Virus record (IMG/VR): IMGVR_UViG_3300037249_001405
Location: 146,317 to 210,316 of that record
From: a virus
Lineage: Duplodnaviria > Caudoviricetes
Strand: one strand, 5' to 3'
Length of the DNA stretch: 64,000 nucleotides
Positions 3,499 to 58,730 of this stretch are shown here, piece after piece. The stretch's first letter is position 1, and every line of letters begins with the position of its first letter. The translations under genes were made by a program, and so were the position numbers. The notes under the pieces were generated by a model. That model saw only the letters and a program-made list of their open reading frames with translations. It made no database searches and was not told where the DNA came from.

Positions 3499-3518
3499 TC
3501 GCTTGAGACTCTTATATA

Positions 3519-3595
3519 TGAAGAAATATTCAGAGCCAATTTTGGCCGCCCATGAACCGCAGTGATGCGCCGGGCGGCTTTTATTTTTTTTTTTC
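3519..3595 (+). ncRNA. Candidate small RNA (own promoter motif, GC-rich hairpin, U-tract)
   Basis: GACTCTTATATATGAAG promoter-like motif at 3507-3523; stem GCCGCCC/GGGCGGC (3545-3578) with inner CGC-AGTGAT-GCG; T-tract; no ORF. May also simply terminate ligA. Confidence 0.4.
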
Positions 3596-3603
3596 TTTCC
3601 TTC

Positions 3604-3692
3604 AAACCCTTATTTATGAAGAAAGTATAAATGTAATTATATTTTCTTCAATTTATTTTTCAAGATATTAATTAAGTAAAAAACTATTTATT
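3604..3692 (+). promoter_or_regulatory. Promoter-hairpin-U-box leader, copy 1
   Basis: AAACCCTTATTTATGAAG, hairpin 3618-3649, TTTATTTTTCAAGATATTAA. Confidence 0.75.
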
Positions 3693-4295
3693 ATGGCAGA
3701 AAAAATATTAAATGAGGAAGAACTTCCCTTCCCCAAATTCATGAAGAATGCTGTTTTCGGTGAACAGTTTCTCATGAAAGAACCTTACTACGGGGTAGCC
3801 ACATACCTTGAGTCTGTAGTAAGGCACGGGTATTACACATTTAGGTTTGCACCTGTCTATGTAGACCCTTTTAGAGAACGGATTAGTAGAGGATTTATAA
3901 CCGATTTCGTAACGAAATCAGAAAAAGAAATCCTTATTAATCCGGATCACGGACAAGAAATAATTGGAAAATTGAATGGTACGTTCAATTTTCAGAAAAT
4001 GTATGAGCTTCACGCCATTAGTGTCATTCTGAGCAACCATACGGATTGCCTAGACAGGACCGAAACTGACGTGGAAATACATGGCTTCTTTTCTCACATC
4101 CGACCCGAAATTCTCGGAGTTCTTGAGAAAAAGAGCAAACTGGCTAAAGAATTTATAGCCAGACTTTCTGAAAGAGAAAGAAATTGCTGCTTCAGCAGAC
4201 AAGACGCTGAATGGAAAGCCTTTAGCAGTGTAGACTGGAAGAAGGAACTCCAGAACTGTGGCTTAGATCTTTCAGAATATTTAACTATCTTTTAA
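3693..4295 (+). CDS. Hypothetical protein
   Basis: 200-aa ORF directly after the conserved leader. Confidence 0.75.
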   Translation: MAEKILNEEELPFPKFMKNAVFGEQFLMKEPYYGVATYLESVVRHGYYTFRFAPVYVDPFRERISRGFITDFVTKSEKEILINPDHGQEIIGKLNGTFNFQKMYELHAISVILSNHTDCLDRTETDVEIHGFFSHIRPEILGVLEKKSKLAKEFIARLSERERNCCFSRQDAEWKAFSSVDWKKELQNCGLDLSEYLTIF

Positions 4296-4307
4296 ACTGA
4301 CATAAGA

Positions 4308-4700
4308 ATGAAAAGTTTAAAAAAGTACAACCGAAAAAACCCTTGGCTTGAGGTAGGTCAGGGTGAATACACGGTATTCAGAAATTACGTAAAATTTGCG
4401 GAAAATGATGCCGATGATTTTTATGGATATTCAGTAAATCCATTTTACTGTTATATTCTGCCTTTAACAAAATTTAAGACTCCTTACTGGAATACAACAC
4501 ATTTTTGTATTTCTAGTGTAGATGATTGGGGTATTCATGCCACATTCAATTACGCTATGACCAGAGAGGAAGCTACGAAACTTTGTAGGGAGTTCATTAG
4601 AAGTTTCAAAAGAACCTCTAGAAGTTTCGGTGGTCTTACACAAGACCACTTTGAAGAATTCTTCAGAGAAAAAGGAGCTGATGAGATATCCCGAGGGTAG
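4308..4700 (+). CDS. Hypothetical protein, similar to the C-terminal domain of ORF 42696-43574
   Basis: FCISSVDDW..FEEFFREKGA vs FIISGGDDY..FDEFFYSKGA. Confidence 0.75.
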   Translation: MKSLKKYNRKNPWLEVGQGEYTVFRNYVKFAENDADDFYGYSVNPFYCYILPLTKFKTPYWNTTHFCISSVDDWGIHATFNYAMTREEATKLCREFIRSFKRTSRSFGGLTQDHFEEFFREKGADEISRG

Positions 4701-4720
4701 TCTCATCAGTCATTAAGATA

Positions 4721-4936
4721 AAACCTCACGTAATCGGTTGAAAGTCCTATATGGATACCCCGGTTCGAACCCGATGAAAACTTGCACGTAACCCCAGGCG
4801 TGTATTGTAAGTAGTTCCGAGTCCCTGAAAAAAGGAGGGCTGCGTCGTGTGAAAAGGACAGTCAGTGAGAAACTCTCACTGGTGCGGCGTGGCTAGAGAT
4901 AGTTGGTAAATTCGGGCTGATCTATGTGAGTTTTTT
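4721..4936 (+). ncRNA. Structured non-coding RNA (~215 nt), possibly raiA-motif-like
   Basis: Closing stem CTCACGTA-ATCGGTT / GGCTGAT-C-TATGTGAG then T-tract; internal hairpins including a T-loop arm CGG-TTCGAAC-CCG (4761-4773) and CAGTGAG/CTCACTG; GC-rich; no ORF. Confidence 0.65.
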
Positions 4937-4942
4937 AAGAAA

Positions 4943-5002
4943 AAAAAAATAAAGACATTTAATCTAAAATTAATTAGGTTATTTGTCTTTATTTTTTTTT
5001 TT
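4943..5002. terminator. Bidirectional terminator between convergent units
   Basis: AAATAAAGACA/TGTCTTTATTT inverted repeat with A- and T-tracts. Confidence 0.65.
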
Positions 5003-5022
5003 ATTTTTCTGGTCTATTTTTA

Positions 5023-6741
5023 TTAGAGAAAACTTCTGTCTTTAGACCAGAATATATTTATTGATGGGGTGGTGTTAATATCCACCTTATCACAATCCAA
5101 ATTATAAATCCAGAAGTCTCCGTTAACTAAGTTGATTAATGGAGAATTCTCAGATTTATCGAGAACCACCCGAGAAAGCGGAATAGAAAGTTGAGGTTCT
5201 CTATCTACGCTGATTTTTTCAGCGGGGTAGATATAGAAAGCTCCGGTAGGAATGGTAAGATCTTTTACATCATCCTTATGAAGGATGGTCGGTACAATCC
5301 GATCCATCAGAGCTTTTTTCTGCTCTTCGGCTTCTTTATGATTGTAAAAAGCCTCCTCACGGCAATAATCAGCGCTACCAATTCTTTGGGAGACTCTTGA
5401 GATTACATCACTTACAAGAAGGTTATAAACTACCTCGTAAGTGATATAAACTTTATCAGTAAACATTGTTTCCAAGGTTTTTCTGATATTTACGTCAGAA
5501 GATTTCTCAACGTAACTATCCTTCAAAGCAAGGATAGGTTTATCTACATGGAGCTTCTTACCAATAATAGACTTCATGTAGGTAGTGAGATAGTATGGCT
5601 TAAGGTAGCTGTAGCCACCGTCATCACACAACTCATTTAAATCACTGACGGTGATCTTATCTTGTCCGCCAAGTAATTTAATTAATCTTTTAGCTTTTTC
5701 AGGCATGTTGTAGTCTTCAAAAGCTTTCTCAATGATTTCATAGTATTTTTCCAGATAGTTTATTTCAGTACCGTCCGGCATTGTTGTTACCATAGAATCA
5801 TCAATAAACTTAGGTTTATCCTCGTATTCACCAGTGTCCTTGTAAACGGAAGAACTGATAAACCAGAAATAAACTGTAATATTCTTGAGCGTAGTGTTAT
5901 TTTTTACCACGAAATAGTGGTAATCAACATCGCTACTATTCTCATCTTCGTCTTCGTTAATGACACCTGCTCTTATAACAAGCATATTGCCATTAGCAAA
6001 TTTGATATTATACACCTCTCTCGAGAGGTTATCGTACTTTGTTATAAAAGAAGGTATTCCCATCATCTCAGGAGAACCATTCTCGTCTTTGCCAGTTGAA
6101 AGAACTAACTCATCAACGAATTTAACAAGTTCACCAGTTTTCATGTTAATACCTACTTTTATATCATAAGAATCATCCTCGTAACAATGATCATCATAGT
6201 CGCAGAGATAACATTCAGGTTCTTCTATACCGAAGAAATTGTAACGAAGCGTTTTGCTGCTTGTTTCAAAATTATCCTCCGTTACAGATTTTATGATATA
6301 GTAATCATCTGTCTTAAAGTTACAGATAAGCTTAGGACACCCATTTTCAGTGTTGCTAAGGTCTATAACTGTAAGACTGTTATCATCCCTGAGGATATAA
6401 AATTCGTTCCACCTGAATGGATCAAAGTTAATATCCTGTATAGTTCTGAAAAATTCGGTTACCGAATTCTCGCTTACTTTGTAATTTACATCACAAAGAT
6501 AATTTATCGATTCAAATAAGAGATGCTCTTTCAAATATCCCTCATTTGTTTGGGAATCGAATCCTTTTTCGATTCTTTTGATAATACATTTCAAAATTTT
6601 CTGAAACGTATTAACAAAGCTTTTATTGTTCCTCTTTGAAGGAAATTCAACGGAACAATAAAATTCAATGAGATCTGCTTTCTGCAAATCAACATTAAGA
6701 CCCTCCTCAACAGGCTTGGGTCTTTTCAAAAGAAATTCCAT
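5023..6741 (-). CDS. Hypothetical acidic protein
   Basis: 572-aa ORF preceded by the conserved leader. Confidence 0.8.
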   Translation of the reverse strand: MEFLLKRPKPVEEGLNVDLQKADLIEFYCSVEFPSKRNNKSFVNTFQKILKCIIKRIEKGFDSQTNEGYLKEHLLFESINYLCDVNYKVSENSVTEFFRTIQDINFDPFRWNEFYILRDDNSLTVIDLSNTENGCPKLICNFKTDDYYIIKSVTEDNFETSSKTLRYNFFGIEEPECYLCDYDDHCYEDDSYDIKVGINMKTGELVKFVDELVLSTGKDENGSPEMMGIPSFITKYDNLSREVYNIKFANGNMLVIRAGVINEDEDENSSDVDYHYFVVKNNTTLKNITVYFWFISSSVYKDTGEYEDKPKFIDDSMVTTMPDGTEINYLEKYYEIIEKAFEDYNMPEKAKRLIKLLGGQDKITVSDLNELCDDGGYSYLKPYYLTTYMKSIIGKKLHVDKPILALKDSYVEKSSDVNIRKTLETMFTDKVYITYEVVYNLLVSDVISRVSQRIGSADYCREEAFYNHKEAEEQKKALMDRIVPTILHKDDVKDLTIPTGAFYIYPAEKISVDREPQLSIPLSRVVLDKSENSPLINLVNGDFWIYNLDCDKVDINTTPSINIFWSKDRSFL

Positions 6742-6837
6742 AATAAAGTAGTTTTTATGTGTTAATAAATCGTGAAAAATAAAAAGAAGAAAATATAGAC
6801 TCTTTACATCTATATTTTCTTCATATATAAGAGTTTA
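6742..6837 (-). promoter_or_regulatory. Promoter-hairpin-U-box leader, copy 2
   Basis: AAACTCTTATATATGAAG, 14-bp stem 6786-6822, TTTTTATTTTTCACGATTTATTAA. Confidence 0.8.
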
Positions 6838-6851
6838 AAGGAATTAGAATA

Positions 6852-8390
6852 TTAATTGTTTTTCTCCATTCCCTCTTTATCCTTCCAATTAATGGCAGGA
6901 TAATATCTTTCTATTTCATTTACTGTATTACCAAAGATCACATCTTCTATCTCGAGTGTATCTTTGTATGCCATAGGTGACTCATCGATGGTCTTTTTTG
7001 TTACTGATGTAGTCACAATACCCTCCATCTCTTTCTCGAATGAAGACATGGAGAACTTAAGAATTTCATTAATCTCGTCATCTGAGAGATTACCAAAATC
7101 CTTTTCATACTTAGCCAATATGGTTAAGTTCTCATCGGAGAAGTCCAAATCAGATTCGTACTCCTCCTTTAATTTGAGGTATTCTTGGAGTTGTTCTGCC
7201 AACTCCAACCTCCTGTCGGCTTCCTTTCTGGACATGATACGTCCGGCACCATGTGGCGCCGAATTACCCCATTCAGGATTACCTAGACCTTCAGCTATTA
7301 CAACACCATCCTTCATTGAGAACGGGATAATAACTATTTCGCCCTGTCTTGCTCTGATAGAAGACTTCCTCAATGTTCTATCCTCAAGATCAACGAAATT
7401 ATGTGTAGTAAATATAGTATCAACAACGCGGACACTATACTTACTTAAAATATCCGTTATGATCTTTTGAACAGTTATGTGATTGTACCTTGCATAAAGC
7501 TGTGCAAAGCACATATCCTGGAGATAACCTTTCATATTATCTCCCTTCAGATAACCATTCATGAATCCTTCTTCAAGCTTCTCGAACTCTGCCGAGAGAT
7601 ACTTGTTTAATTCATCCTTAAAGAACTTCATGTCCTTTCCTTCGGCCTTATATTTAGCCTTGAAAGAATCAGTAAGTTCCTTTTCTTTCTCTTTCCTTTC
7701 TTTCTTAGAAAGAGGGTTATTTGAAATGTTCTTCCAGTAAGTAGCTACAGCAAGACCAAATCTTCTTGATCCAAAGTGAAGGAAGAAAGCAGCTTTCTTC
7801 TTATCCTTTGTCAAATCATACTCCAGAAAGTGGTTTCCGCCACCTACTGTTCCGAGTGATTTCCAAAAGACACCTGGATCAAAGTTATTAATACGTTTAA
7901 GAAACGCATTAATCCAGTCTTCCGATACACGTACAGGAAGATCACCTAACATTTCAGGCCAAAGTTGCCTGTATTTGTTAAATTCCTTTGTTATGAATTT
8001 ACAAAATTCATCAGTTTTCACCTTTGAATTTTCATGAAGGTGAAATCCCATAGGTACCTGTTGAGATACCTTATGTTCAAACTCGATAAGCTTGTCTTCA
8101 GAGACAGGTTTATCGAGAATCATACCAGATACAGTACAACCTATATCTACTCCGATGTGGAGTGGGTTAATATAGTTGCCAATAGTTGCAGAAAGGCCAC
8201 AAGGACCTGCTGCACCTACGTGAGCATCTGCCATAAGATAAACCGATTGGCCCTCAAAGGCTTTCGAGTTTATGATGTCGTCAACCTGTTCCAGCACACC
8301 TGGGTCATAGGTCCTTATATACGCTTTACAAGTAGCGTATTTTCCCTTTTTTACGAGAGGGAGGGGACCATCGTAATATAAATTTGCCAT
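6852..8390 (-). CDS. rtcB: RtcB-family RNA 3'-phosphate/5'-OH ligase
   Basis: DAHVG, GVDIGC, GTVGGGNHF, HFGSR, THN and SAPHGAGR motifs, DESPMAYK. Confidence 0.93.
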   Translation of the reverse strand: MANLYYDGPLPLVKKGKYATCKAYIRTYDPGVLEQVDDIINSKAFEGQSVYLMADAHVGAAGPCGLSATIGNYINPLHIGVDIGCTVSGMILDKPVSEDKLIEFEHKVSQQVPMGFHLHENSKVKTDEFCKFITKEFNKYRQLWPEMLGDLPVRVSEDWINAFLKRINNFDPGVFWKSLGTVGGGNHFLEYDLTKDKKKAAFFLHFGSRRFGLAVATYWKNISNNPLSKKERKEKEKELTDSFKAKYKAEGKDMKFFKDELNKYLSAEFEKLEEGFMNGYLKGDNMKGYLQDMCFAQLYARYNHITVQKIITDILSKYSVRVVDTIFTTHNFVDLEDRTLRKSSIRARQGEIVIIPFSMKDGVVIAEGLGNPEWGNSAPHGAGRIMSRKEADRRLELAEQLQEYLKLKEEYESDLDFSDENLTILAKYEKDFGNLSDDEINEILKFSMSSFEKEMEGIVTTSVTKKTIDESPMAYKDTLEIEDVIFGNTVNEIERYYPAINWKDKEGMEKNN

Positions 8391-8392
8391 TA

Positions 8393-8836
8393 TTATATGG
8401 ATGAATTAATAAACTCAACAATTTCGTCATAAGAATTGTTTTGCCAAAACTTCCTGACGTTCTCAAACGAAATATTCATCTTATTACCATATTCATCGTA
8501 ATAAGTCATTTCAATTTTGACAACCGAAGGACATGGTTCATAATCAGTCTGATAAGTACGAATTATGAAACCAGCTTCATCAAGGATATCGATAATATCA
8601 TCAATATCTTCGTTTTCGTCCACATGACAGCCGAACTTAGGCTCGTCACCGTTATATGGGGTTGTAATATAAGCTAATACGTAAATTAGCTTATCATTAC
8701 CAAAGAATTCCTCAGGATTGATTTCGAATTCTTTTGTGATATAATCTGCATCACCCTGATCCCAAGTGTTTTTGACCAAGATGACATTTTTGCGTTCCTT
8801 GTTAGCTGAAGGAACCAGTAGAATGTGTTTATCCAT
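8393..8836 (-). CDS. Hypothetical protein (paralog of 10926-11441)
   Basis: Shared FF..DKLIYVLAYI and Y.DE.G.K..ISF motifs. Confidence 0.8.
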   Translation of the reverse strand: MDKHILLVPSANKERKNVILVKNTWDQGDADYITKEFEINPEEFFGNDKLIYVLAYITTPYNGDEPKFGCHVDENEDIDDIIDILDEAGFIIRTYQTDYEPCPSVVKIEMTYYDEYGNKMNISFENVRKFWQNNSYDEIVEFINSSI

Positions 8837-9031
8837 AATAAATATTTTATTTAAAAAATTAATATCTAGAAAAATAAAAAGAGAGTATAAAGCGGGATGC
8901 TTTATACTCTCGAGAAACAGAAAACAAAAATCAACCCAATAAATAAATTATGTCTTGAGTAATAATGGTTTAGAAAAATAAAAGATAATATAAACTTTTT
9001 ATCGTTTATATTATCTTCATGTATTAGGTTT
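8837..9031 (-). promoter_or_regulatory. Two tandem hairpin-U-box leaders (copies 3 and 4) with no gene between them
   Basis: AAAACCTAATACATGAAG plus stem 8982-9017 plus U-box; second stem 8881-8911 plus TTTTTATTTTTCTAGATATTAA. Confidence 0.75.
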
Positions 9032-9858
9032 TAATTGCTTTTCTTCCGTAAATTTTCTTGAATCTTTTTCCACACTTCAGGGCTACATCCGGTATTTAAA
9101 TTCGGAGGATCATAATCAATAAAAGAGTTATAAGTATCCTGTCCGAGTTTTGCCTCATCATGATAATGTTCAAGCATAGATGCTTTCTTACCATTAACTG
9201 TATATTTTTTCTTAGTAAGCTCTTCTGTCGGTATTCCTGATTTTAACCAAGCATTCATAACTTGACTCCTATTACCAGATTTTTCATATTGAAGTAAGTA
9301 ATTAGAATAATCTAAAATCTCATTAGGGTTTCTTAAATTAACAGCATCACCTTGTTTTAATTGATCTTCAAACTTCTTTCCATTAAAGTGCTTTCTAAAA
9401 TCAACTAAATCTTTTTCATTTCGAGCTTCTAGGTGATCATATGCATGACCGGCTTCATGAGCAGCATCTGATCCAGAAACTTTAGGTAAGAGTATACCCT
9501 TAACTTTTCGTTTTGCTCCATCTAGGTATGACAATGTGATAGGAGCTGATACTTTTGGTGATGCAACCGTAGTTATTCCATCCTTACGAAGAGACTTTAT
9601 AACTCCATGCCCAATATCTCTATCTTCTAGTATAGCATCTAAATCACCGTTCTCCTTACCAATTAAATAATCATTATATCTATTAACGGAGCTCAATGAT
9701 CTGTTGTCTTGCTTTCTCCTAAGATCTCTATAAAAATCAGCCTTCTCATTCTTTATAAGTTTTCTGAAAATAAGATTTAATTCCTGATTTTTTTTCAATT
9801 TCCTTACACGATCGGCATGAGAAGCTATTCCATATAAATTTGTTCTATATATAATCAT
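9031..9858 (-). CDS. Putative HExxH zinc-binding (metallopeptidase-like) protein
   Basis: AAHEAGHA motif; start chosen at MIIYR (ATG 9858) rather than GTG 9912. Confidence 0.6.
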   Translation of the reverse strand: MIIYRTNLYGIASHADRVRKLKKNQELNLIFRKLIKNEKADFYRDLRRKQDNRSLSSVNRYNDYLIGKENGDLDAILEDRDIGHGVIKSLRKDGITTVASPKVSAPITLSYLDGAKRKVKGILLPKVSGSDAAHEAGHAYDHLEARNEKDLVDFRKHFNGKKFEDQLKQGDAVNLRNPNEILDYSNYLLQYEKSGNRSQVMNAWLKSGIPTEELTKKKYTVNGKKASMLEHYHDEAKLGQDTYNSFIDYDPPNLNTGCSPEVWKKIQENLRKKSN

Positions 9859-9907
9859 AATAAATAATCTTCTTTTACATATAAGATAAAAGGAGAAAAA
9901 AGAAAGA

Positions 9908-9950
9908 AACACATATATCTAATTTTTTGTATTTTAGATATATGTGTTTT
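9908..9950. terminator. Intrinsic terminator
   Basis: AACACATATATCTAA/TTAGATATATGTGTT inverted repeat. Confidence 0.7.
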
Positions 9951-9959
9951 ATATTTTGA

Positions 9960-10919
9960 CTACTCTTCCTCTTCGTCATCCTCAGAACGAGGATCTACGT
10001 CAAGGGGATTGAAGTAGTATTGGTTACAGTAAGGGCAATAAATGCTCTCTCCGTTTTTCATAAGGTAAGTCTGGCTACCACACTGTGGACACTTACACTT
10101 ATCCTCTGTAGTAAGAGTGGTTAAATCCTCCGGCATAGGGGCCAAAGGTTCATTGTACTCTTCCTCACCAAATCGGTTATTAGGATCAAAAGCCTTGAAC
10201 CGACTGATTGTAATAGCATCTCTACAATCCTCCTTTTTCTCTTCAACGAGGGTTCGAAGTTCTTCATCTTCAGGAAGAAGATCCATCGGGATTGTTATAA
10301 ATGCTTCTTTAATATTTTGATATGCACCCATACCAATAGTGAATGACTTCATAAAGCCCGATTCACGATCGAGGTAAGTTACATTCAAATTTTTCCTTGG
10401 CAAATCATTAGAAGATATCTGATTTGAGATAGTTGCAATAAGGATCAACTTATCCAAATCACCTACTTCAATAATTTTGCCAGTCCTCCAATCCTCTACC
10501 TTAGCCTTAGTAAATACCTTAATAGGTACATCTGCTCCAGTAAGATAAAGAGCTCCTGTGTGAATTTCGTTCCTTTCTTCCTCTTCTTCCGTATCAGGAT
10601 GGAAAATATGAGAAAGATAGGTTACATTATGGAACTTATCTCCATAGACTTGTTTAATCTCTTCGATCAACTCCTCTATTTCTTTAAGTTCATCGGGATT
10701 GGTTTTAGCGTAACCTAAAACCAAAGCATCACCGTCCTTAAAAGCTTCCGGAAGCTCGTCTTTGAGAGTGATGTTTTTCTTCTTAAACTCATCTACTTTG
10801 TTTAAGATTGCGGCGACTTCTTCGTCGTACTCAAGACTCTGATTGAATCTTGGGTCTTTTTCACAAATGAGGTCAATGTACTTAACCCCATCTCGAGTGT
10901 TTACCTCTGTCCTGTACAT
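9960..10919 (-). CDS. Hypothetical protein with C-terminal zinc ribbon
   Basis: CPQC...CPYC near the C-terminus. Confidence 0.8.
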   Translation of the reverse strand: MYRTEVNTRDGVKYIDLICEKDPRFNQSLEYDEEVAAILNKVDEFKKKNITLKDELPEAFKDGDALVLGYAKTNPDELKEIEELIEEIKQVYGDKFHNVTYLSHIFHPDTEEEEERNEIHTGALYLTGADVPIKVFTKAKVEDWRTGKIIEVGDLDKLILIATISNQISSNDLPRKNLNVTYLDRESGFMKSFTIGMGAYQNIKEAFITIPMDLLPEDEELRTLVEEKKEDCRDAITISRFKAFDPNNRFGEEEYNEPLAPMPEDLTTLTTEDKCKCPQCGSQTYLMKNGESIYCPYCNQYYFNPLDVDPRSEDDEEEE

Positions 10920-10925
10920 AAAAAA

Positions 10926-11441
10926 CTAGTTTTTTGTAAATTTATTATATTTTTCCAGAAACTCCGGAAAATTTTCTTCAAATTCAATTTGATTAATGAA
11001 ATCTGTGATTTCATCACGGGTTTTATCTTTCCAAATAATTTCAATTATCTGGTCAAATGAAACCAACCACTTCTTGCCTTTTTCGTCAAAATAAACTATT
11101 TTTAATTCATTGACAGAATGGCAAATGGAGGAACAATTGCCTTTATAGCTGTATGTATGAAGGTTATGGTAACATAGAAAAGGAGTAATATATTTAATAT
11201 CCTCTTTTTCTATAATATCCCTATTGAGATATTTTTGGATATAAGCTAATACGTAAATTAGCTTATCATCCTCAAAGAATGTTCTTGCATCCTTCTTAAT
11301 TGGGTAAGAATTGTAACATTTGGCATAATTATCGAACATGTCATTCCAAATGATTGTAATTTCAACAAGGTTCTTTGGCTTGTCGTCTTGAGGGATTTCT
11401 TTGATAAGAAGACCCCTGTTATATTCATATTTTGTAATCAT
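10926..11441 (-). CDS. Hypothetical protein (paralog of 8393-8836)
   Basis: DKLIYVLAYI shared. Confidence 0.8.
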   Translation of the reverse strand: MITKYEYNRGLLIKEIPQDDKPKNLVEITIIWNDMFDNYAKCYNSYPIKKDARTFFEDDKLIYVLAYIQKYLNRDIIEKEDIKYITPFLCYHNLHTYSYKGNCSSICHSVNELKIVYFDEKGKKWLVSFDQIIEIIWKDKTRDEITDFINQIEFEENFPEFLEKYNKFTKN

Positions 11442-11533
11442 AAATATAATAAGTAGTTTTTATTAATTAATATCTAGAAAAATAAAAAGAAGAAGATATA
11501 AACTAATTTATATCTTCTTCTTCATTAAGAGTT
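11442..11533 (-). promoter_or_regulatory. Promoter-hairpin-U-box leader, copy 5
   Basis: Stem 11489-11520, TTTTTATTTTTCTAGATATTAA. Confidence 0.8.
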
Positions 11534-11543
11534 ACAGGGATTG

Positions 11544-12206
11544 TTACATGTACTCTGATTCAGTTCTACGATACCTTCTTAGACGGTAGTTTGATGCAAC
11601 GAGCTCTTCAAATGAAGATTCCTTGTACTCAATGTACACAGAATTAGGACCATGTTGCTCTTTCCATTCCAAGATTCTAAGTTGTTGTTCATCCCACTTC
11701 TTTTTTCTCTCCAACCATTCTGGAGTGAAATTACCGTCTTCTGGGAATTCAGGCATTTCAAGAAGAGGTTCACCATTAGGTGCATACTCAATCTTCTTTT
11801 CTGGCTCTTCATTTACAGGTTCCGGCTCTACTACCTTCTGTGAACGTTGCTTAGCTTCCTGCTTCTGAATTCTTTTCTCCTGTTCAATTCGTTTCTGATA
11901 AGAGGCCTCTGTTGAATCAACGGTTACCTCATTAGCAATCTGTGGTGCACTCTTATCTCCTCTAAGGAGGAGGTAGACTAGAAGACCACCGAGAGCCACT
12001 ATCAAGAAGATAAGAACCCAAAGTCCTTTCATCTTCTTTGTCTTCCTATGTCCTTCTCCTGTAGCTCCACCAATTGGACCATAGGTATCAGAATAGCTCC
12101 TTTCTTTCGAGACAGATTTGTCACTTACTCTGTGGCTACCTGTGCCGTTGTAATCAATCACCGCCTTCTTATTGGCGGCATTTGCTCTTGATCTTGCTCC
12201 TGCCAT
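11544..12206 (-). CDS. Single-pass membrane protein
   Basis: Hydrophobic segment GLWVLIFLIVALGGLLVYLLL after a basic stretch. Confidence 0.8.
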   Translation of the reverse strand: MAGARSRANAANKKAVIDYNGTGSHRVSDKSVSKERSYSDTYGPIGGATGEGHRKTKKMKGLWVLIFLIVALGGLLVYLLLRGDKSAPQIANEVTVDSTEASYQKRIEQEKRIQKQEAKQRSQKVVEPEPVNEEPEKKIEYAPNGEPLLEMPEFPEDGNFTPEWLERKKKWDEQQLRILEWKEQHGPNSVYIEYKESSFEELVASNYRLRRYRRTESEYM

Positions 12207-12250
12207 TTTTCTTTGTTTTTTTTTAATTAATAGTTATTATGTTTATTTAT

Positions 12251-13087
12251 TTATTCAGCAACGACAACACCAGAATCACTTCCAATGAAATCATCACCAA
12301 TTGGTTTATTTTCTATTGTAAAACCAGCTCTTATATCCAAATCTTTCAAATCAGACTCAGACATACCAAGGAGATTCATAATGAATGAATTTAGAGTTTT
12401 CTTATCTAACTCAATATGATCACGATTATGAATACCACTTTCAAACTTAATAATAAGGGTTATTTCATATTTCCCCTCTTTTCGAGATCCATTATTACCA
12501 CGAAGCAATACACCAATCTCATCTTTTGAATCTAAGATTAGACCGTTGTTATCACTGTTAACGTTAATATCGTACCTCAAAATACTTGACTGTAAAATTT
12601 TTTCTCTTACACAAGTATTCAATAGCGTATTAAAGTATTTCGGGATAATATACTTTAACATAGCCTCCACTTCTCTTTCATCATCAACCCATTTATCTGT
12701 TTCAATAAAATTTGGAGTTGACTCAGAATAGTTGTAGCGTAAAGCTTTAACCTTAATAGCTTCTGTCATTATTTTAATGACATCTGGGTCATTCATATAT
12801 GTATTAGTGAAATAAATTGGATTACTCAACAAATACATAAGAAAATCTATATTCGAAGAATCAGCTAACTCGACATAAGAGGTAATTTGAGGATATATTC
12901 TTCTATAATCTTCCTCATTTTCTCCTTTTGTTGTAGATTTAAATGAGTAAGATTCAACAAATATTGATTGATAATTATCGGAGTTGACTTTACTCAAAAC
13001 AGATTTCATAATAGACTCAGAAACATTTTCTAATTCTATTTCCACGGATCTTGTAATCCGTAATGTAGGAATTGTTCCTTCTTCCAT
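12251..13087 (-). CDS. Hypothetical protein (family with 15085-15912 and the N-terminus of 17109-19742)
   Basis: Shared IKVKALRY..PNF and IPKYFN-type blocks. Confidence 0.75.
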   Translation of the reverse strand: MEEGTIPTLRITRSVEIELENVSESIMKSVLSKVNSDNYQSIFVESYSFKSTTKGENEEDYRRIYPQITSYVELADSSNIDFLMYLLSNPIYFTNTYMNDPDVIKIMTEAIKVKALRYNYSESTPNFIETDKWVDDEREVEAMLKYIIPKYFNTLLNTCVREKILQSSILRYDINVNSDNNGLILDSKDEIGVLLRGNNGSRKEGKYEITLIIKFESGIHNRDHIELDKKTLNSFIMNLLGMSESDLKDLDIRAGFTIENKPIGDDFIGSDSGVVVAE

Positions 13088-13183
13088 TTTTTTTCATATT
13101 TAGTTAATATCGTGAAAAATAAAAAGAGAAAGTGAGTGTATGAATATAGAAACGTACACTCACTTTCTCAGTGATTAGATTTT
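13088..13183 (-). promoter_or_regulatory. Promoter-hairpin-U-box leader, copy 6
   Basis: AAAATCTAATCACTGAG, 15-bp stem 13126-13169, TTTTTATTTTTCACGATATTAA. Confidence 0.8.
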
Positions 13184-13187
13184 GAGA

Positions 13188-15059: not shown

Positions 15060-15084
15060 AATTATTAATTGTTGTGTTTTTTTT

Positions 15085-15912: not shown

Positions 15913-15987
15913 AATTGATAAGTGTTTAGTTAATAATGATAATTTATTTTTTTTGTTCTTTTATTAGATTTTGAAGGGACAAAAAAA

Positions 15988-16025
15988 GTAACTGATAATT
16001 AGATTTTTTTCTAATTATCAGTTAA
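15988..16025. terminator. Intrinsic terminator
   Basis: TAACTGATAATTAGA/TCTAATTATCAGTTA inverted repeat next to an A-tract. Confidence 0.7.
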
Positions 16026-16029
16026 TCTA

Positions 16030-16212: not shown

Positions 16213-16281
16213 TTTAATAATTTTTTATTTATTATTAATAAAGATTTTAATTCATTTATTAGGTTTTTAAGGGAGCAAAAA

Positions 16282-16394
16282 AAATATTACCAATAACCAC
16301 TTAAGCTACCGACGCTTTTCAGGGCATCAGGTCCGAGTTGAACGGACTACTCTCGTTTTTCACGCGAGCGCTTCACCGATTATTGGTAATATTT
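16282..16394 (-). ncRNA. Circularly permuted tRNA-Phe(GAA)-like RNA inside a 17-bp closing stem
   Basis: Minus strand: GGTG-AAGC-G-CTCGC-GTGAAAA-ACGAG-AGTA-GTCCG-TTCAACT-CGGAC-CTGATGC-[CCTGAAAA]-GCGTCGG-TA-GCTT-AAGT; all four tRNA stems pair. Confidence 0.8.
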
Positions 16395-16600: not shown

Positions 16601-16945
16601 CTACTCCAGGCGCATCTTTACCCAGAGGCATTCTGCCTCCTTGGGCAGCTCTGTAGTGCCATTAGGCAATCTAACGGGAGTCGGAGGAACGAACTGGTAT
16701 ACCCAGAACTCGTCCCCCCTTTGGGGTCGGAACTGACGGCGTGCCGTATCACACGGCACGCCTGCTCTTGCTGCGGTGTCGGGGTGGCCGACATAACTGT
16801 CGACCTCATCGTCCTCACCAAAAGGACGGTGATCTCCAGGCTTAACCTCAAGAGGTTTAAAAACTGGAATCTGATCAGCCCCTACCAGCTCCTTCAAAGG
16901 GAGCATATTGAGGCTGATCGAATTTACTATTACGATCTTTGACAT
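16601..16945 (-). CDS. acrIII-1: AcrIII-1-like (DUF1874 / STIV B116 / YddF family) cyclic-oligoadenylate ring nuclease
   Basis: NSISLNML, SYVGHPDTA (catalytic His motif), GDEFWVYQ, RLPNGTTELP; 114 aa. Confidence 0.75.
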   Translation of the reverse strand: MSKIVIVNSISLNMLPLKELVGADQIPVFKPLEVKPGDHRPFGEDDEVDSYVGHPDTAARAGVPCDTARRQFRPQRGDEFWVYQFVPPTPVRLPNGTTELPKEAECLWVKMRLE

Positions 16946-17002: not shown

Positions 17003-17042
17003 AAGAATTCTTATGCGGAATTTCCATTATCGCAAAAAAAAA

Positions 17043-17072: not shown

Positions 17073-17108
17073 CAATTAACTACATGTTTGAGGGCATATT
17101 GTAATTAA

Positions 17109-19840: not shown

Positions 19841-20575
19841 ATGGATAGACTTCTTATGTTTTGCGGTGATGTACATGGTTATATCACTGCATTAGTCAAT
19901 CGACTATGTTGTGAAATGCAACTAAATCACGTTGATTGTATAGTCTGTGGAGATTTTGGTATCGGCTTTGACAAAAGCTGGGAGAATCTCTACAACAAAA
20001 TTGAACCTAAGCTTAAAAAAGCGGATGTTCATATTTGGGTTGTAAGGGGCAACCACGATAATCCTGAATATTTTGAAGATGAAACAAGATATTCAAAAGA
20101 TTATGTAACTTTTATGGAGGATTATAAACTCTATAAAATTGCAGAAAAAGAAATACTTCCCGTCGGAGGAGCTACTTCTGTTGACAAAAAGTTGAGGGAA
20201 GAAGGCAAAAACTGGTGGCCTGGTGAAAAAATTAAGAGGGTAGATATAAAGACATTACCTACAAAGGTTGATGTAATTGTATCACATCAATGCCCATTGA
20301 TTTTTGACCCAATTACAGTTAAATTGGATGACGATGATGATATTTATGAGGAAGTTACAGAGGAACGTAACTATCTTAACGAAATCGCATTCAATGTAAA
20401 AGCTGAATACTGGTATTATGGTCATCACCATACACATTATTCTGGAGAATATAAAGACATGAAATGGATATGTCTTGGTATTTCTAATCGTAGGGATCTT
20501 CGACCTGAACTTGACTATTATAAAGAAAGAGAAGATTTCGAGCCGAATCCTCAAGGGGAAGACTCAAAACCTTAA
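19841..20575 (+). CDS. Calcineurin-like metallophosphoesterase
   Basis: GDVHG, GDFG, GNHD, SH and GHHH motifs. Confidence 0.92.
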   Translation: MDRLLMFCGDVHGYITALVNRLCCEMQLNHVDCIVCGDFGIGFDKSWENLYNKIEPKLKKADVHIWVVRGNHDNPEYFEDETRYSKDYVTFMEDYKLYKIAEKEILPVGGATSVDKKLREEGKNWWPGEKIKRVDIKTLPTKVDVIVSHQCPLIFDPITVKLDDDDDIYEEVTEERNYLNEIAFNVKAEYWYYGHHHTHYSGEYKDMKWICLGISNRRDLRPELDYYKEREDFEPNPQGEDSKP

Positions 20576-38203: not shown

Positions 38204-38668
38204 ATGGAAGTTATATTCCTGGTAGGCTTGCCTGGATCAGGTAAGTCCACAGTTGCAAGTATTGACCCCACTTACAAGGTGGTGTCAATGGACCGTATTC
38301 GTCAGGATATGGGCATCATCGGCTCTGATGGCAAAAAAGGCATCGGAAACAATGAGCAAGAAGCCGTTGTAAAGGCTAAAGAAAATGAAACCATTGCCGA
38401 TTGGGCTAAAGCCGGTTATGATTTCATAATTGATGATACTAATTTAAAATCCGGTAAAAGGATGATGCAAATTGATATCATTAAAAAAGCTAACCAAAAT
38501 TACAAGATTAAGTATATTTTGGTTAAGACTCCGGTGGAGATTTGTATATCTCGCCGTCCTGAAATTCCCCAGGATATTATGCATTCATTTAATGATGCAA
38601 GTAACTGGGTAATTTACAAAGAGGAGCTTCAACAGATTGATGCTCTTGAGGTAATAAGCAATAACTAA
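38204..38668 (+). CDS. P-loop polynucleotide kinase-like protein (AAA_33)
   Basis: VGLPGSGKST, SMDRIR, IIDDTN, CISR. Confidence 0.85.
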   Translation: MEVIFLVGLPGSGKSTVASIDPTYKVVSMDRIRQDMGIIGSDGKKGIGNNEQEAVVKAKENETIADWAKAGYDFIIDDTNLKSGKRMMQIDIIKKANQNYKIKYILVKTPVEICISRRPEIPQDIMHSFNDASNWVIYKEELQQIDALEVISNN

Positions 38669-40190: not shown

Positions 40191-40259
40191 TAGTGGCTCA
40201 TTGAGGATTCGAACCTCTTTCGGTATTATTTCCCGACGCTGCGCCTCGCCTTAGAGCCA
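40191..40259 (-). ncRNA. Degenerate tRNA-like element (pseudo-tRNA) at the 3' end of an ORF-less transcript
   Basis: TGGCTC/GAGCCA acceptor-like stem, GAGG-TTCGAAT-CCTC T-arm, TCGG/CCGA anticodon-like stem lacking U33, minimal D-arm. Confidence 0.6.
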
Positions 40260-53660: not shown

Positions 53661-53750
53661 AATAAATAAAATTTAAATAAAAGTTAAAATCTTGAAAAAT
53701 AAAAGAGGATATAAACTTAACTGTCTATATCTTCTCATTAATAAGGGTTT
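53661..53750 (-). promoter_or_regulatory. Promoter-hairpin-U-box leader, copy 13
   Basis: AAACCCTTATTAATGAG, hairpin nearly identical to copy 11, TTTTATTTTTCAAGAT. Confidence 0.8.
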
Positions 53751-53760
53751 GAAGTGAAAG

Positions 53761-53882
53761 AAAAAAAGGAAATCAACACGAGCTTCACAGTCGTGTTGAT
53801 TTAATGGGGGGCACTAGGTGAGAATGTTTGCTACTCGTACCCCCCGGAGGGTTTCATTAATTTAATTTTTTTATATTATGCT
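53761..53882 (-). ncRNA. Candidate small RNA or micro-ORF transcript
   Basis: Promoter-like ATAGCCTTATATATAG, GGGGGGTAC/GTGCCCCCC stem, terminator AAATCAACACGA-CTGTGAAGC-TCGTGTTGATTT. Confidence 0.45.
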
Positions 53883-56837: not shown

Positions 56838-56841
56838 AATA

Positions 56842-57369
56842 ATGAATTATATGGCTATAACACAGCCGGATATTAATAATGGTTTAGGTTGCCGGGTTAC
56901 CTTGTGGGTATCCGGCTGCCCTAATCATTGTCCTGGCTGTCACAATCCAGAAACATGGGATAAATTAGCGGGAAAGAAATTTGATGAAGAGGCTAAGAAT
57001 AAGTTGATGGAGTATCTTAGCAAGCCCTACATCAAAGGACTGACCTTGAGTGGTGGAGAACCATTGGATTTTAGAGACTCTGATAAATGTGAAGTTTTAT
57101 TAGATATTGTAAAGACTGTAAAAACATCTATGCCGGATAAAGATATTTGGGTTTTTTCAGGGTTTACTTTGAGGGAGTTATTATCTCACCCATCTACAAC
57201 TTCTATACTAGATTATGTAGATAATTTAGTAGATGGTAAGTTTGAACAAGATAAGGCTGATAAATCTCTAGCATTCAGAGGATCAAAAAATCAAAAGATC
57301 TACACCAATTATACCTATGAATCCGTTACAGGACCTGATAATTGGGTAGATCAGACAGAGAAATTCTAA
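56842..57369 (+). CDS. nrdG: Anaerobic RNR activating enzyme
   Basis: NGLGCR, CPNHCPGC radical-SAM motif, SGGEP, FRGSKNQ. Confidence 0.96.
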   Translation: MNYMAITQPDINNGLGCRVTLWVSGCPNHCPGCHNPETWDKLAGKKFDEEAKNKLMEYLSKPYIKGLTLSGGEPLDFRDSDKCEVLLDIVKTVKTSMPDKDIWVFSGFTLRELLSHPSTTSILDYVDNLVDGKFEQDKADKSLAFRGSKNQKIYTNYTYESVTGPDNWVDQTEKF

Positions 57370-57386
57370 CAAAAATTAAATATATT

Positions 57387-58193
57387 ATGATCGGCAAAGA
57401 TTCAATTTCAATTCTTAGAGAAAGAAGAACTAAATCCTTTTCCATAATATTTATGAATACGGAGTATCCACTTACAGAGAAACAGCAAAATGGGTTAGAT
57501 AAATTAGCTAAAATATCTGACACATTTCTTGTATTTGATGATAAGTGGGGTAAAGGTTCTGAAACTGTTGATAAGATGAAATTCACTTGTCTCCATGATT
57601 GCTATGGTTGGGTAGATGTAGGTAACTCATTAGGGGAAACTATACTAAAGGTACTAGAGTATACTTTAATTATACCTGAAAGTTCTGGTCATTTGTTCTA
57701 TTCTTTTGTTAAATGTGATAGGTTAGGAGAATTGACTACAGAAATAACAAATACTTGGGTAGATTATAAAAAGAGTAATACGTTAGTTGACCCTATATTT
57801 AAATTAGATAGACTTAGCCCTGATGAACTTGCTAATATTTATAGAAAGCTTGAGCCTACAACTTCAATAAAACCAATTAGTAAGGTAGATTTAATTAAGA
57901 AGTGGATAATTAAGTTAAAGTATGAACCTATAAAGAAATCCTCTATAGATTATACCAATGCTTATACTACCCACCGTACTAAATCATGGTTTGTCCCTAT
58001 GAAAGTAGGTACTGTAAGTAGATTAGTGGATTTTTATAAAGAAAGTAAAAACCTATCTTATATCAGAACGTTTGAGTTTGTAGATCCGTTTTATTTCATT
58101 GCTTCATTAATAGTTAAGTTAGGTATAACAATTAGTAACTTTGATTTTACTGAAGTAGAAATAAAGGAAAATAATATTATTAAGAAAGAATGA
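57387..58193 (+). CDS. Hypothetical protein
   Basis: ORF with probable start ATG 57387. Confidence 0.7.
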   Translation: MIGKDSISILRERRTKSFSIIFMNTEYPLTEKQQNGLDKLAKISDTFLVFDDKWGKGSETVDKMKFTCLHDCYGWVDVGNSLGETILKVLEYTLIIPESSGHLFYSFVKCDRLGELTTEITNTWVDYKKSNTLVDPIFKLDRLSPDELANIYRKLEPTTSIKPISKVDLIKKWIIKLKYEPIKKSSIDYTNAYTTHRTKSWFVPMKVGTVSRLVDFYKESKNLSYIRTFEFVDPFYFIASLIVKLGITISNFDFTEVEIKENNIIKKE

Positions 58194-58528
58194 CAGAGTT
58201 TTATGAACAGTCGGGATTTAACCCATACTACCCATCTGAGATTGAGACCTGGAAGTGGAATACAAAGGAATCTCCTCCAGACTGGGTAATAGATTATTGT
58301 AGGGTTAGAAATATAGACCTAGATAGTAAAACAGTTCTCGAATATAAAAAGACTACGACAGGAGGTATAGAACTTGTTAGGTCTGGTTTTGATTCCTATA
58401 CTCCAATTTTGATAGTTAACCCTGAAACAGATCCACTATGTTTCGACCATGTTACTAAAAAATTATTCGTATTAACAGGTCGTGCTTTGAATTTAATGTA
58501 TAAAAAGGTAGAGGGAAGAAAAAAATAA
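58190..58528 (+). CDS. Hypothetical protein
   Basis: 112-aa coupled ORF. Confidence 0.7.
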   Translation: MTEFYEQSGFNPYYPSEIETWKWNTKESPPDWVIDYCRVRNIDLDSKTVLEYKKTTTGGIELVRSGFDSYTPILIVNPETDPLCFDHVTKKLFVLTGRALNLMYKKVEGRKK

Positions 58529-58552
58529 ATAATAGGAACTTAATCCTATTAT

Positions 58553-58692
58553 TAAAATAAAAACCCCCAGAGATGACACAAAAAAAAAATTAATCATCAA
58601 AAAACAAAAAATCAAACAAACGGTAGCAAAGCAATAAATAAAACTCTGGGGGTGAAACAAATCGAATTCAAATAACTATATCTATAACGCTA
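58553..58692 (-). ncRNA. Candidate small RNA with a 10-bp GC stem closing a ~70-nt U-rich loop
   Basis: Promoter-like GAACCTTACAAATAG (58690-58704), ACCCCCAGAG/CTCTGGGGGT (58563-58653), U-tract. Confidence 0.5.
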
Positions 58693-58730
58693 TTTGTAAG
58701 GTTCTTAGGAATTTATAAAAGGAAGTATTT

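What the first reader, a model, noticed from the sequence alone, without database searches (positions are those of the whole stretch)
3507..58704. Integrated hypothesis: an RNA-based counter-defence layer of tRNA mimics and clamp RNAs
Seen: I found no canonical tRNA in the window, but four non-coding elements carry tRNA T-loop arms (4761, 16331, 29883, 40203). Several ORF-less units display cargo within terminator-like clamps, and the same window encodes RtcB, a PNK-like kinase, an AcrIII-1-like nuclease and a Rho-like ATPase. Inference: the phage expresses non-chargeable tRNA-shaped RNAs to titrate tRNA-targeting defences or to modulate translation, with its own enzymes processing or repairing them. 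Linking these parts into one system is speculative.
Basis: inference. Interest (0 to 1): 0.75.

Follow-up and report, generated by a model that had tools for sequence, protein, structure and literature searches.

The report
Separate tRNA-mimic RNAs in jumbo phage
This rumen jumbo-phage segment really does carry several tRNA-shaped non-coding RNAs (the clearest is a sealed, inside-out phenylalanine-tRNA look-alike) together with RNA-repair and anti-CRISPR genes, but related phages keep, lose or swap these parts one by one, so they do not look like a single system.

Summary
The window (last 64 kb of a 210-kb IMG/VR jumbo-phage record) has no canonical tRNA and no Rfam family. E2 (16277-16394, minus) is a complete cloverleaf in permuted order: ARAGORN calls it tRNA-Phe(GAA) once re-ordered in silico, and a genome-wide control finds only one other such element. 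Its acceptor end is sealed by an 8-nt loop and its D-loop is replaced by a roughly 20-bp clamp that ends in a U-run. E1 (4724-4936, plus) is a real 215-nt folded RNA (14 compensatory pairs in three sequences) with canonical T-loop and D-loop sequences. E3 and E4 carry T-arms but I could fetch no relatives for them. RtcB, a PNK/PSTK-type kinase and an AcrIII-1 (DUF1874) protein are confirmed; the Rho-like ATPase is weak. In a 94% relative E1 and E2 are kept but the AcrIII-1 gene and three other small genes are absent. In a 67% clade E1 is a clean 233-nt presence/absence cassette beside RtcB. The parts are therefore independently distributed. Best reading: separate tRNA-mimic RNAs of the Y-RNA kind plus an ordinary jumbo-phage toolkit. 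This scan noted similar permuted tRNA look-alikes on other phage DNA before; E2 lacks their handle motif.

The parts
16277..16394 (-). E2: sealed, circularly permuted tRNA-Phe(GAA) look-alike. Order 5'->3' on the minus strand: clamp arm 16394-16377; D-stem 3' strand 16373-16370; anticodon-like arm 16368-16352; T arm 16347-16331; acceptor 3' strand 16330-16324; 8-nt sealing loop 16323-16316; acceptor 5' strand 16315-16309; U8-A9 and D-stem 5' strand 16308-16303; clamp arm 16299-16282; then a U-run.
   Evidence: The MFE fold is the cloverleaf plus clamp. ARAGORN calls tRNA-Phe(gaa) in 24 of 25 in-silico re-ordered versions. In the genome-wide clamp scan only this element and one other span the junction, against 1 weak hit in the reversed genome. 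The ortholog in L011/L012 keeps 98.8% of pairs.
4724..4936 (+). E1: ~215-nt structured RNA cassette. Closing helix 4724-4738 with 4914-4930, then a U-run; hairpin 4744-4756; T-loop hairpin 4761-4773; hairpin 4781-4807; long hairpin 4838-4894; D-loop-like strand 4894-4913.
   Evidence: RNAalifold on the window, L012 and L013 gives 63 pairs, 95.8% paired, 14 with changes on both sides, against 0-2 in slid controls and 0 of 500 shuffles. Many G-U pairs fit only the plus strand. The cassette is absent from L014/L015 as a clean 233-nt indel.
29806..29925 (-). E3: tRNA-like module inside a large ORF-less region. Clamp 29925-29912 with 29820-29806; T arm 29900-29883; closed acceptor-like hairpin 29882-29867; GG-containing D-like segment 29866-29853.
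   Evidence: Read from the sequence and the MFE fold. No relatives could be fetched, so there is no covariation test. The z-score of the module alone is -1.1.
29360..30282 (-). ~0.9-kb ORF-less, relatively GC-rich region that contains E3 and ends in a hairpin plus U-run (29404-29360). Presumed large non-coding RNA.
   Evidence: No ORF of 60 aa or more fills the region. GC is 0.40-0.42, against about 0.33 for the genome. A terminator is seen. There is no Rfam match and no paralog in the genome.
40194..40259 (-). E4: degenerate cloverleaf. 6-bp acceptor-like helix 40259-40254 with 40199-40194; 3-bp D-like hairpin; 4-bp stem with a 9-nt loop 40236-40220; T arm 40217-40203. It is followed by a strong two-way terminator at 40188-40136.
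   Evidence: The cloverleaf-like fold is -20.1 against an MFE of -20.7 kcal/mol, z -1.7. ARAGORN reports it only at the 85% threshold. It is not close to any of the phage's own tRNAs. Its 3' end matches no host tRNA in 185,579 species genomes; the single hit lies inside a dnaK coding sequence.
6852..8390 (-). RtcB RNA ligase
   Evidence: Pfam PF01139, 3e-44. Homologs of 95%, 87% and 66% identity and lower, and 80 metagenome loci.
16601..16945 (-). AcrIII-1 / DUF1874-family protein (114 aa), directly upstream of E2 on the same strand. It is an accessory insertion.
   Evidence: A profile of its family (A5) hits SIRV1 ORF114, AFV3-109, 6scf and STIV B116 at 5e-11 to 2e-8. Eight of 13 family members hit PF08960. 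N8, S11, N13, H54, T57 and R92 are in place. The gene is absent from L012.
38204..38668 (+). P-loop kinase of the PNK/KTI12/PSTK group (154 aa, kinase domain only)
   Evidence: Pfam AAA_33 at 1e-14 and KTI12 at 5e-6. Best PDB match is L-seryl-tRNA(Sec) kinase at 8e-9.
19841..20575 (+). Calcineurin-type metallophosphoesterase (possible RNA end-healing phosphatase)
   Evidence: Pfam Metallophos at 7e-13. No PDB match at 1e-3.
22725..23741 (-). RecA-fold P-loop ATPase, weakly Rho-like
   Evidence: Pfam ATP-synt_ab at 2e-5 and NACHT at 1e-5, both below their cut-offs. Best PDB match is the Rho ATPase domain at E 0.003, 20 bits, over residues 157-281 only.

Best explanation
The stretch is not one system. 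It is a mosaic accessory region of a rumen jumbo phage that holds several separately inherited items. (1) E2 is a stand-alone small RNA. It is a complete tRNA-Phe-type cloverleaf written in permuted order. Its aminoacyl end is closed by a loop that reads like a Phe anticodon loop. It also has a second GAA loop in the anticodon position. Its D-loop is replaced by a long closing helix that doubles as the intrinsic terminator. As transcribed it cannot be charged, so it most likely acts as a tRNA mimic, either a protein-binding decoy or a scaffold in the manner of the tRNA-like Y RNAs (YrlA). (2) E1 is a 215-nt folded RNA cassette with T-loop and D-loop sequences in the YrlA order (variable-like hairpin, T, closed stem, D, closing helix). 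It sits at the 3' end of the rtcB region and is gained or lost as a unit. (3) E3 is a T-arm plus closed-acceptor module built into a ~0.9-kb non-coding RNA. (4) E4 is a degenerate cloverleaf with its own terminator. RtcB, the kinase and the phosphoesterase are the usual jumbo-phage RNA-repair set, and the DUF1874 protein is an anti-type-III-CRISPR ring nuclease. Shown: the structures of E1 and E2, the protein family assignments, and the independent distribution. Inferred: expression, and the mimic or decoy role.
For: E2: cloverleaf MFE. ARAGORN calls tRNA-Phe after re-ordering. Specificity: two loci in the genome against one weak hit in the reversed genome. The ortholog's substitutions keep pairing: 4 one-sided pair-keeping changes, and C31 to U creates a U31-A39 pair in the 5-bp anticodon-stem reading. 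E1: 14 compensatory pairs, 0 of 500 shuffles. At 76% identity to L013 it is more conserved than its flanks at 67-70%. Independent distribution. Proteins. Literature: tRNA-like Y RNAs with V, T, closed acceptor-like and D elements occur in bacteria and phages (PMC4201824). RtcB, kinases, phosphoesterases and TROVE proteins with tRNA-like partners are described as jumbo-phage RNA-repair gear (PMC7824862).
Against: There are no expression data. No TROVE/Ro60 protein was found in the record, although the record is only about 56% complete. The Rfam YrlA model does not match E1-E4. E2's closing helix sits at the D-loop, not at the anticodon stem as in YrlA. E2's only orthologs are about 95% identical and the whole intergenic region is equally conserved, so selection on E2 itself is only weakly shown. 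E3 and E4 have no comparative support. The T hairpin and the helix next to the D-like strand of E1 never vary, so the tRNA-like reading of E1 rests on sequence motifs alone.
Confidence: 0.5

Rival explanations
1. One integrated counter-defence layer. The tRNA-shaped RNAs soak up host tRNA-cleaving defence nucleases, and RtcB, the kinase and the phosphoesterase repair or process them.
For: tRNA mimics, RtcB, an end-healing-type kinase and phosphoesterase, and an anti-CRISPR gene lie within 40 kb. E1 abuts rtcB in three genomes. The phage carries two tRNA-Phe(GAA) genes with different anticodon stem-loops plus the Phe mimic, which would fit a conflict over tRNA-Phe.
Against: The parts are gained and lost independently. 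No permuted tRNA lies near RtcB in 822 kb of other RtcB loci. Proximity in an accessory-gene region of a jumbo phage is weak evidence. No tRNase target is known.
Confidence: 0.15
2. E2 is a true permuted tRNA gene. RNase P and 3' trimming open the sealing loop and CCA is added. The two pieces either stay clamped as a split tRNA-Phe, or are cut at the clamp and joined by RtcB into a normal tRNA.
For: All cloverleaf elements, U8-A9, a 7-bp acceptor and a 7-nt anticodon loop with U33 and GAA are present. M. smegmatis YrlA is cut by RNase P and receives CCA at the equivalent site (PMC4201824). RtcB is encoded 8 kb away.
Against: No bulge-helix-bulge motif is seen at the clamp; it is a continuous helix. 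No splicing endonuclease family and no CCA-adding enzyme were found in the record. The D-loop is replaced by a rod of about 25 bp, which should break the D/T-loop elbow. Two normal tRNA-Phe(GAA) genes already exist. The discriminator is C.
Confidence: 0.1
3. The tRNA-like modules and clamps act only in cis. They serve as processing signals for RNase P/Z, as 3'-end stabilisers and as terminators of the upstream mRNAs, with no trans-acting role.
For: E1 and E2 start a few to a few hundred nucleotides after upstream ORFs on the same strand, and their closing helices are followed by U-runs. Strong hairpins are present in nearly every intergenic gap. Loss of E1 in L014/L015 leaves the shared terminator intact.
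Against: A plain hairpin terminates as well. The 215-nt E1 fold is kept by 14 compensatory changes, and the complete cloverleaf of E2 is far more than termination needs.
Confidence: 0.15
4. E4, and possibly E3's module, are decaying tRNA relics or chance look-alikes with no function.
For: E4 scores below the ARAGORN default among noise hits, its z-score is -1.7, and its stems are short. E3's module has a z-score of -1.1. There is no comparative support.
Against: An 11-nt canonical T-loop core followed by a 6-bp closing helix and a dedicated terminator is unlikely by chance in a 33% GC genome (inference). E3's T arm is directly followed by a closed hairpin, as in E2 and in the tRNA-array element.
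Confidence: 0.1

Closest known systems
YrlA-type bacterial and phage Y RNAs (Rfam RF02553; Chen et al. 2014, PMC4201824)
   Same: Small non-coding RNA with a tRNA-like domain in permuted order: T arm stacked on a closed acceptor-like stem, then a D element, all held by a closing helix. Often encoded beside rtcB. Not chargeable as transcribed.
   Different: No Ro60/TROVE gene was found, there is no 5' Ro-binding motif, and there is no RF02553 match. E2 is opened at the D-loop and keeps a full anticodon-like arm, whereas YrlA is closed at the anticodon-stem position. E1 is twice as long, with extra hairpins between the T element and the closed stem.
Circularly permuted tRNA genes of Cyanidioschyzon merolae and some archaea (from my own knowledge; only touched on in PMC3400036 and PMC4238349, listed and not read)
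   Same: The 3' half lies upstream of the 5' half with a short linker between the acceptor strands. Junctions in the D-loop are known there. An RtcB-type ligase is the joining enzyme in such pathways.
   Different: No bulge-helix-bulge motif and no splicing endonuclease. The setting is bacterial/phage. Normal tRNA-Phe genes are already present.
Handle-clamped permuted tRNA look-alikes noted earlier in this scan on other phage and giant-virus DNA (e1-5905358, e1-5665601, e1-5870603; AI notes)
   Same: Sealed inside-out tRNA copies held by a terminal helix in large phages.
   Different: Their 7-nt handle motif is not at any clamp here (13 matches in the window against 16 expected, none at E1-E4). 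No Ro60-shaped partner was identified.
Phage-encoded tRNAs that counter tRNA-cleaving defences (from my own knowledge: T5 tRNAs against PARIS and retron/PtuAB; mycobacteriophage tRNAs with altered anticodon loops)
   Same: RNA-based answer to anticodon nucleases. Duplicated isoacceptors with altered anticodon stem-loops.
   Different: Those are functional, chargeable tRNAs that replace cleaved host tRNAs. E2 is sealed and would have to work as a decoy, which has not been shown for any phage RNA that I could find.

Membership tests
Canonical tRNA | Detected by ARAGORN or the Rfam tRNA model in genomic order | tested here: not met
   0 genes in the window. No Rfam tRNA hit at E<=5. E4 appears only at the 85% threshold, among noise hits.
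Circularly permuted tRNA gene (C. merolae type) | 3' half upstream of 5' half; re-ordered sequence is a full cloverleaf | tested here: met
   E2: ARAGORN calls tRNA-Phe(gaa) in 24 of 25 re-ordered versions. Only 2 such loci in the genome, against 1 weak hit in the reversed genome.
Circularly permuted tRNA gene (C. merolae type) | Bulge-helix-bulge at the joined termini, and a splicing endonuclease to cut it | tested here: not met
   The clamp is a continuous helix with a small symmetric internal loop. PF01974 is absent from the record, which is about 56% complete.
YrlA Y RNA (RF02553) | Score at or above the Rfam gathering threshold | tested here: not met
   Best hits in the genome are 23 bits or less (threshold 69), and they lie on tRNA pairs in the tRNA array, not on E1-E4.
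YrlA Y RNA (RF02553) | Encoded with a Ro60/TROVE protein | tested here: not met
   PF05731 finds nothing in the 210-kb record at E<=10. The record is incomplete, so absence from the phage is not proven. The 572-aa neighbour of E1 is an ORFan.
YrlA Y RNA (RF02553) | T-like and D-like elements flanking a closed acceptor-like stem, inside a closing helix | tested here: inconclusive
   E2 meets this for T plus closed acceptor, but it is closed at the D-loop. E1 has the right order, but with 75 extra nucleotides and invariant T and D elements. E3 has the right order but no comparative data.
AcrIII-1 / DUF1874 ring nuclease | Family-level sequence similarity to solved members | tested here: met
   Profile A5, which includes the window protein, hits 2x4i, 2j6b, 6scf and 2j85 at 5e-11 to 2e-8. 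Eight of 13 family members hit PF08960. The window protein alone does not.
AcrIII-1 / DUF1874 ring nuclease | Absolutely conserved catalytic His and the cA4-contacting residues | tested here: met
   H54 is invariant in A5. N8, S11, N13, T57, Q84 and R92 are present. They correspond to N8, S11, N13, H47, T50, Q81 and R85 of SIRV1 gp29 (10.1101/778746). Activity was not tested.
RtcB RNA ligase | PF01139 over the cut-off, with conserved metal and GMP-binding histidines | tested here: met
   152 bits against a cut-off of 27. Invariant D55/H57/C64, H187/H205 and H304/H330/H380 columns in A1.
Rho transcription terminator | N-terminal RNA-binding OB domain plus RecA-type ATPase | tested here: not met
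   Only residues 157-281 align weakly with the Rho ATPase domain (20 bits). No Rho_N or Rho_RNA_bind Pfam hit.

The most novel reading that the evidence does not exclude
E2 is a new topological class of phage tRNA mimic. It is a sealed tRNA-Phe whose acceptor end is capped by a second Phe-type anticodon loop and whose D-loop is a rigid rod. It would be made to bait a host nuclease or sensor that reads the tRNA-Phe anticodon loop, while the phage's two divergent tRNA-Phe genes keep translation going. E1, E3 and E4 would be further members of a wider repertoire of tRNA-elbow decoys in this phage lineage.
Probability: 0.15. Interest if true: 0.8.

Novelty: new variant of a known kind. Interest (0 to 1): 0.5.

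Why it matters
tRNA is a main battleground between phages and bacteria, but the known phage answers are working replacement tRNAs and repair enzymes. A sealed, non-chargeable tRNA copy would be a different tactic: a decoy or scaffold. E2 is a clean, testable example with a topology (opened at the D-loop, two GAA loops) that I did not find described. The negative result also matters. The attractive 'one RNA-based layer' picture is not borne out by gene distribution, so each RNA should be studied on its own. E1 additionally shows that a folded RNA can behave as a discrete insertion/deletion cassette in phage genomes.

Tried and rejected
- raiA, tmRNA, RNase P, group I/II intron and other Rfam identities for E1 and E3: no hits, even at E<=5.
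- E4 as an att-site copy of a host tRNA 3' end: no tRNA match in 185,579 species genomes, and the one exact hit is inside a dnaK coding sequence. No match in viral contigs.
- E2 as a recent copy of the phage's own tRNA-Phe: only generic similarity.
- The 572-aa ORF between E1 and rtcB as a hidden Ro60: nothing in Pfam, PHROGs, PDB or the Atlas, and the ORF is missing from the 67% clade.
- Handle motif of the earlier-noted permuted tRNA family: not enriched and not at the clamps.
- Relatives in IMG/VR via three neighbouring proteins and two DNA patterns: none close. INPHARED phages: none.
- AlphaFold on the single 114-aa sequence: pLDDT 40, unusable.
- The genome search cannot reach metagenome records, so E3 and E4 orthologs in the 119.6-kb relative contig could not be read.


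Full report
Setting. The window is positions 146,317-210,316 of a 210,316-bp linear IMG/VR virus record that CheckV rates about 56% complete. GC is about 33%. It is a jumbo phage. Its closest relatives come from rumen metagenomes.

Observation. ARAGORN finds no tRNA in the window, although the genome has 19 tRNAs at 87-97 kb and 120.8 kb. Rfam gives nothing at gathering thresholds, and nothing tRNA-related at E<=5. The four T-loop sites exist. The bare T-loop 9-mer is not enriched in the window as a whole (10 matches, 6.7 expected). However, the four sites account for half of the matches while lying in the roughly 8% of the window that has no ORF.

E2 (16277-16394, minus strand). The minimum-energy fold is a cloverleaf whose ends are held by a long helix. 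Reading 5' to 3', the order is:
- clamp arm
- 3' strand of the D stem
- a hairpin in the anticodon position, whose 7-nt loop has U33 and GAA
- a 4-nt variable region
- a perfect 5-bp T arm with a canonical loop
- a 7-nt acceptor 3' strand
- an 8-nt sealing loop, whose last seven bases equal the anticodon loop of the phage's second tRNA-Phe
- the acceptor 5' strand
- U8-A9
- the D-stem 5' strand
- clamp arm
- a run of eight U

When I cut out the clamp and re-ordered the halves, ARAGORN called tRNA-Phe(gaa) in 24 of 25 trimming variants. I then ran a genome-wide scan that takes every helix of 7 bp or more enclosing 55-125 nt, re-orders the interior and asks ARAGORN. It found junction-spanning tRNAs at only two places: E2, and an element in the tRNA array at genome 95,167-95,270. 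The same scan on the reversed genome gave one weak single-variant hit. On 822 kb of RtcB-containing loci from other genomes it found only the E2 orthologs.

The orthologs, in L011 and L012 (RtcB 94% identical), are 94.7% identical across the whole intergenic region. Conservation alone is therefore not informative. The substitutions do respect the fold. Of 42 pairs, 98.8% remain paired, with four one-sided changes that keep pairing. The one apparent break is an alignment artefact of a G-to-C change that an inserted G compensates. C31 becomes U, which creates a U31-A39 pair in the 5-bp anticodon-stem reading. The D-loop is not a loop. The clamp continues to within a 3x3 internal loop of the D stem, giving a rod of about 25 bp. 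E2 is not a recent copy of the phage's tRNA-Phe genes.

E1 (4724-4936, plus strand). It starts just after the stop codon of a 130-aa ORF and ends in a closing helix followed by a U-run. A second, two-way terminator shared with the convergent rtcB operon follows. Orthologs exist in L012 (96% identity) and L013 (76%). With only three sequences, RNAalifold gives 63 pairs, 95.8% of cells paired, and 14 pairs changed on both sides. Slid controls give 0-2 such pairs, and none of 500 column shuffles reaches the observed value. Many G-U pairs fit only the plus strand.

The fold is a closing helix around four hairpins and a long bipartite hairpin. The T-loop hairpin has only a 3-bp stem, but its loop varies exactly at the tRNA-variable positions 57, 59 and 60. 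The strand after the long hairpin reads U8-A9, a 3-bp stem and a textbook D-loop sequence. The order (variable-like hairpin, T, closed stem, D, closing helix) is that of YrlA (PMC4201824), but with about 75 extra nucleotides. The T hairpin and the helix next to the D-like strand never vary, so this reading rests on motifs only.

Contigs L013, L014 and L015 are 94-95% identical in both flanks. E1 (233 nt) is present in L013, and 19 nt stand in its place in L014 and L015. A direct repeat of roughly 11-13 nt flanks E1 and occurs once in the empty sites. A similar repeat flanks E1 in the window. E1 therefore behaves as a discrete cassette. It is more conserved (76%) than the flanking DNA (67-70%). 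No further copy was found by nhmmer in the genome or the loci.

E3 (29806-29925, minus strand). It lies inside a roughly 0.9-kb ORF-less, GC-richer region that ends in a hairpin plus U-run. A T arm (5 bp with one bulged A, canonical loop) is directly followed by a closed 6-bp hairpin and a GG-containing segment, all inside a clamp of about 14 bp. The arrangement resembles E2 and the tRNA-array element. I have no relatives for it, and its folding z-score is unremarkable.

E4 (40194-40259, minus strand). This is a cloverleaf-like element with a 6-bp acceptor-like helix, a 3-bp D-like hairpin, a 4-bp stem with a 9-nt loop, and a 4-bp T arm with a canonical loop. A strong terminator follows. The cloverleaf is within 0.6 kcal/mol of the MFE. 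ARAGORN sees it only at 85% thresholds, among noise hits. Its 3' end is not a copy of any host tRNA in the species-genome collection.

Proteins.
- RtcB is solid.
- The 154-aa kinase belongs to the PNK/KTI12/PSTK group.
- A calcineurin-type phosphoesterase is present.
- The 338-aa ATPase is only weakly Rho-like and lacks the RNA-binding domain.
Single-sequence searches miss it. An exhaustive phmmer search found a small family. Eight of the 13 aligned members hit PF08960, and the family profile hits the four solved DUF1874 proteins at 5e-11 to 2e-8. The catalytic His and the N8/S11/N13, T, Q and R contacts reported for SIRV1 gp29 are in place.
- No TROVE domain, splicing endonuclease or CCA-adding enzyme was found in the record, and only a faint Rnl-type ligase hit.

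Are the parts linked? A block-by-block comparison of window 1-18,400 with L012 shows that E1, E2, RtcB and the large genes are kept at 90-94% identity. Four small genes are missing from L012: 3709-4301, 8412-8828, 15102-15909, and the AcrIII-1-like gene at 16552-16952. The region of the 572-aa ORF is rearranged. E1 is optional in the 67% clade. RtcB loci of more distant phages and bacteria carry no permuted tRNA within 10 kb. E2, E3 and E4 could not be followed beyond the 94% relative.

Mechanism. I rank the readings as follows.
- Independent tRNA-mimic RNAs of the Y-RNA kind, with E2 a sealed decoy or scaffold: 0.5.
- Purely cis-acting processing and terminator elements: 0.15.
- The integrated counter-defence layer: 0.15.
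- A genuine permuted tRNA gene matured with RtcB: 0.1.
- Relics, especially E4: 0.1.
The presence of two divergent tRNA-Phe genes plus a Phe mimic with two GAA loops hints at a conflict over tRNA-Phe. This is inference only.

Novelty. tRNA-like Y RNAs in bacteria and phages, and the jumbo-phage RNA-repair toolkit, are known (PMC4201824; PMC7824862). Full-text searches found no report of a permuted tRNA in a phage. This scan has, however, noted sealed permuted tRNA look-alikes with a conserved handle on other phage DNA. E2 differs in that it has no handle, is opened at the D-loop, and retains an anticodon-like arm. I class the finding as a new variant of a known kind.

Limits. One last pattern search was not run because of the typed-sequence limit.

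Noticed in passing
window 4715-4947; L013:1966-2202; L014:5720-5738: E1 is a clean 233-nt presence/absence cassette between strains that are 94-95% identical in both flanks. It is bounded by an A-rich direct repeat of roughly 11-13 nt that occurs once in the empty site. This looks either like a target-site duplication or like deletion between repeats.
   Followed up: partly
genome 95,165-95,280 (+), about 51.1 kb before the window start: A second sealed permuted tRNA-like RNA sits in the tRNA array: long variable arm, canonical T arm, 7-bp acceptor closed by a tetraloop, D arm, and ends paired where the anticodon stem would be (YrlA topology). It was found independently by my permutation scan.
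   Followed up: partly
window 3590-3680 (-), 53685-53770 (+), 40383-40429 (+), and many other genome sites: A repeated leader cassette (short conserved box, hairpin, conserved G-rich box, A-run) recurs in front of genes and also in front of GC-rich clamp hairpins.
   Followed up: no
window 58563-58653 (+): A 9-bp GC-rich helix encloses about 72 nt of A-rich, G-poor, apparently unstructured sequence between two plus-strand genes, with no U-run after it. Function unknown.
   Followed up: no
window 1-18400 versus L012: The 94% relative lacks four small genes of the window and has about 3 kb of different DNA next to rtcB. This is a mosaic of small accessory-gene insertions around conserved large genes.
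   Followed up: partly
genome 94,672-94,745 (+): ARAGORN reports a tRNA with an unassignable four-base anticodon in the tRNA array.
   Followed up: no
window 4815-4835, 16316-16323, 29833-29844 (hairpin loops of E1, E2, E3): Three of the elements carry a hairpin loop containing the same 6-nt word, which is also the core of a tRNA-Phe anticodon loop. About 0.15 occurrences are expected by my rough estimate for some 450 nt.
   Followed up: no
window 46280-46546 and 46586-48229 (+): The phage encodes its own GroES-like (weak hit) and GroEL chaperonin pair.
   Followed up: no
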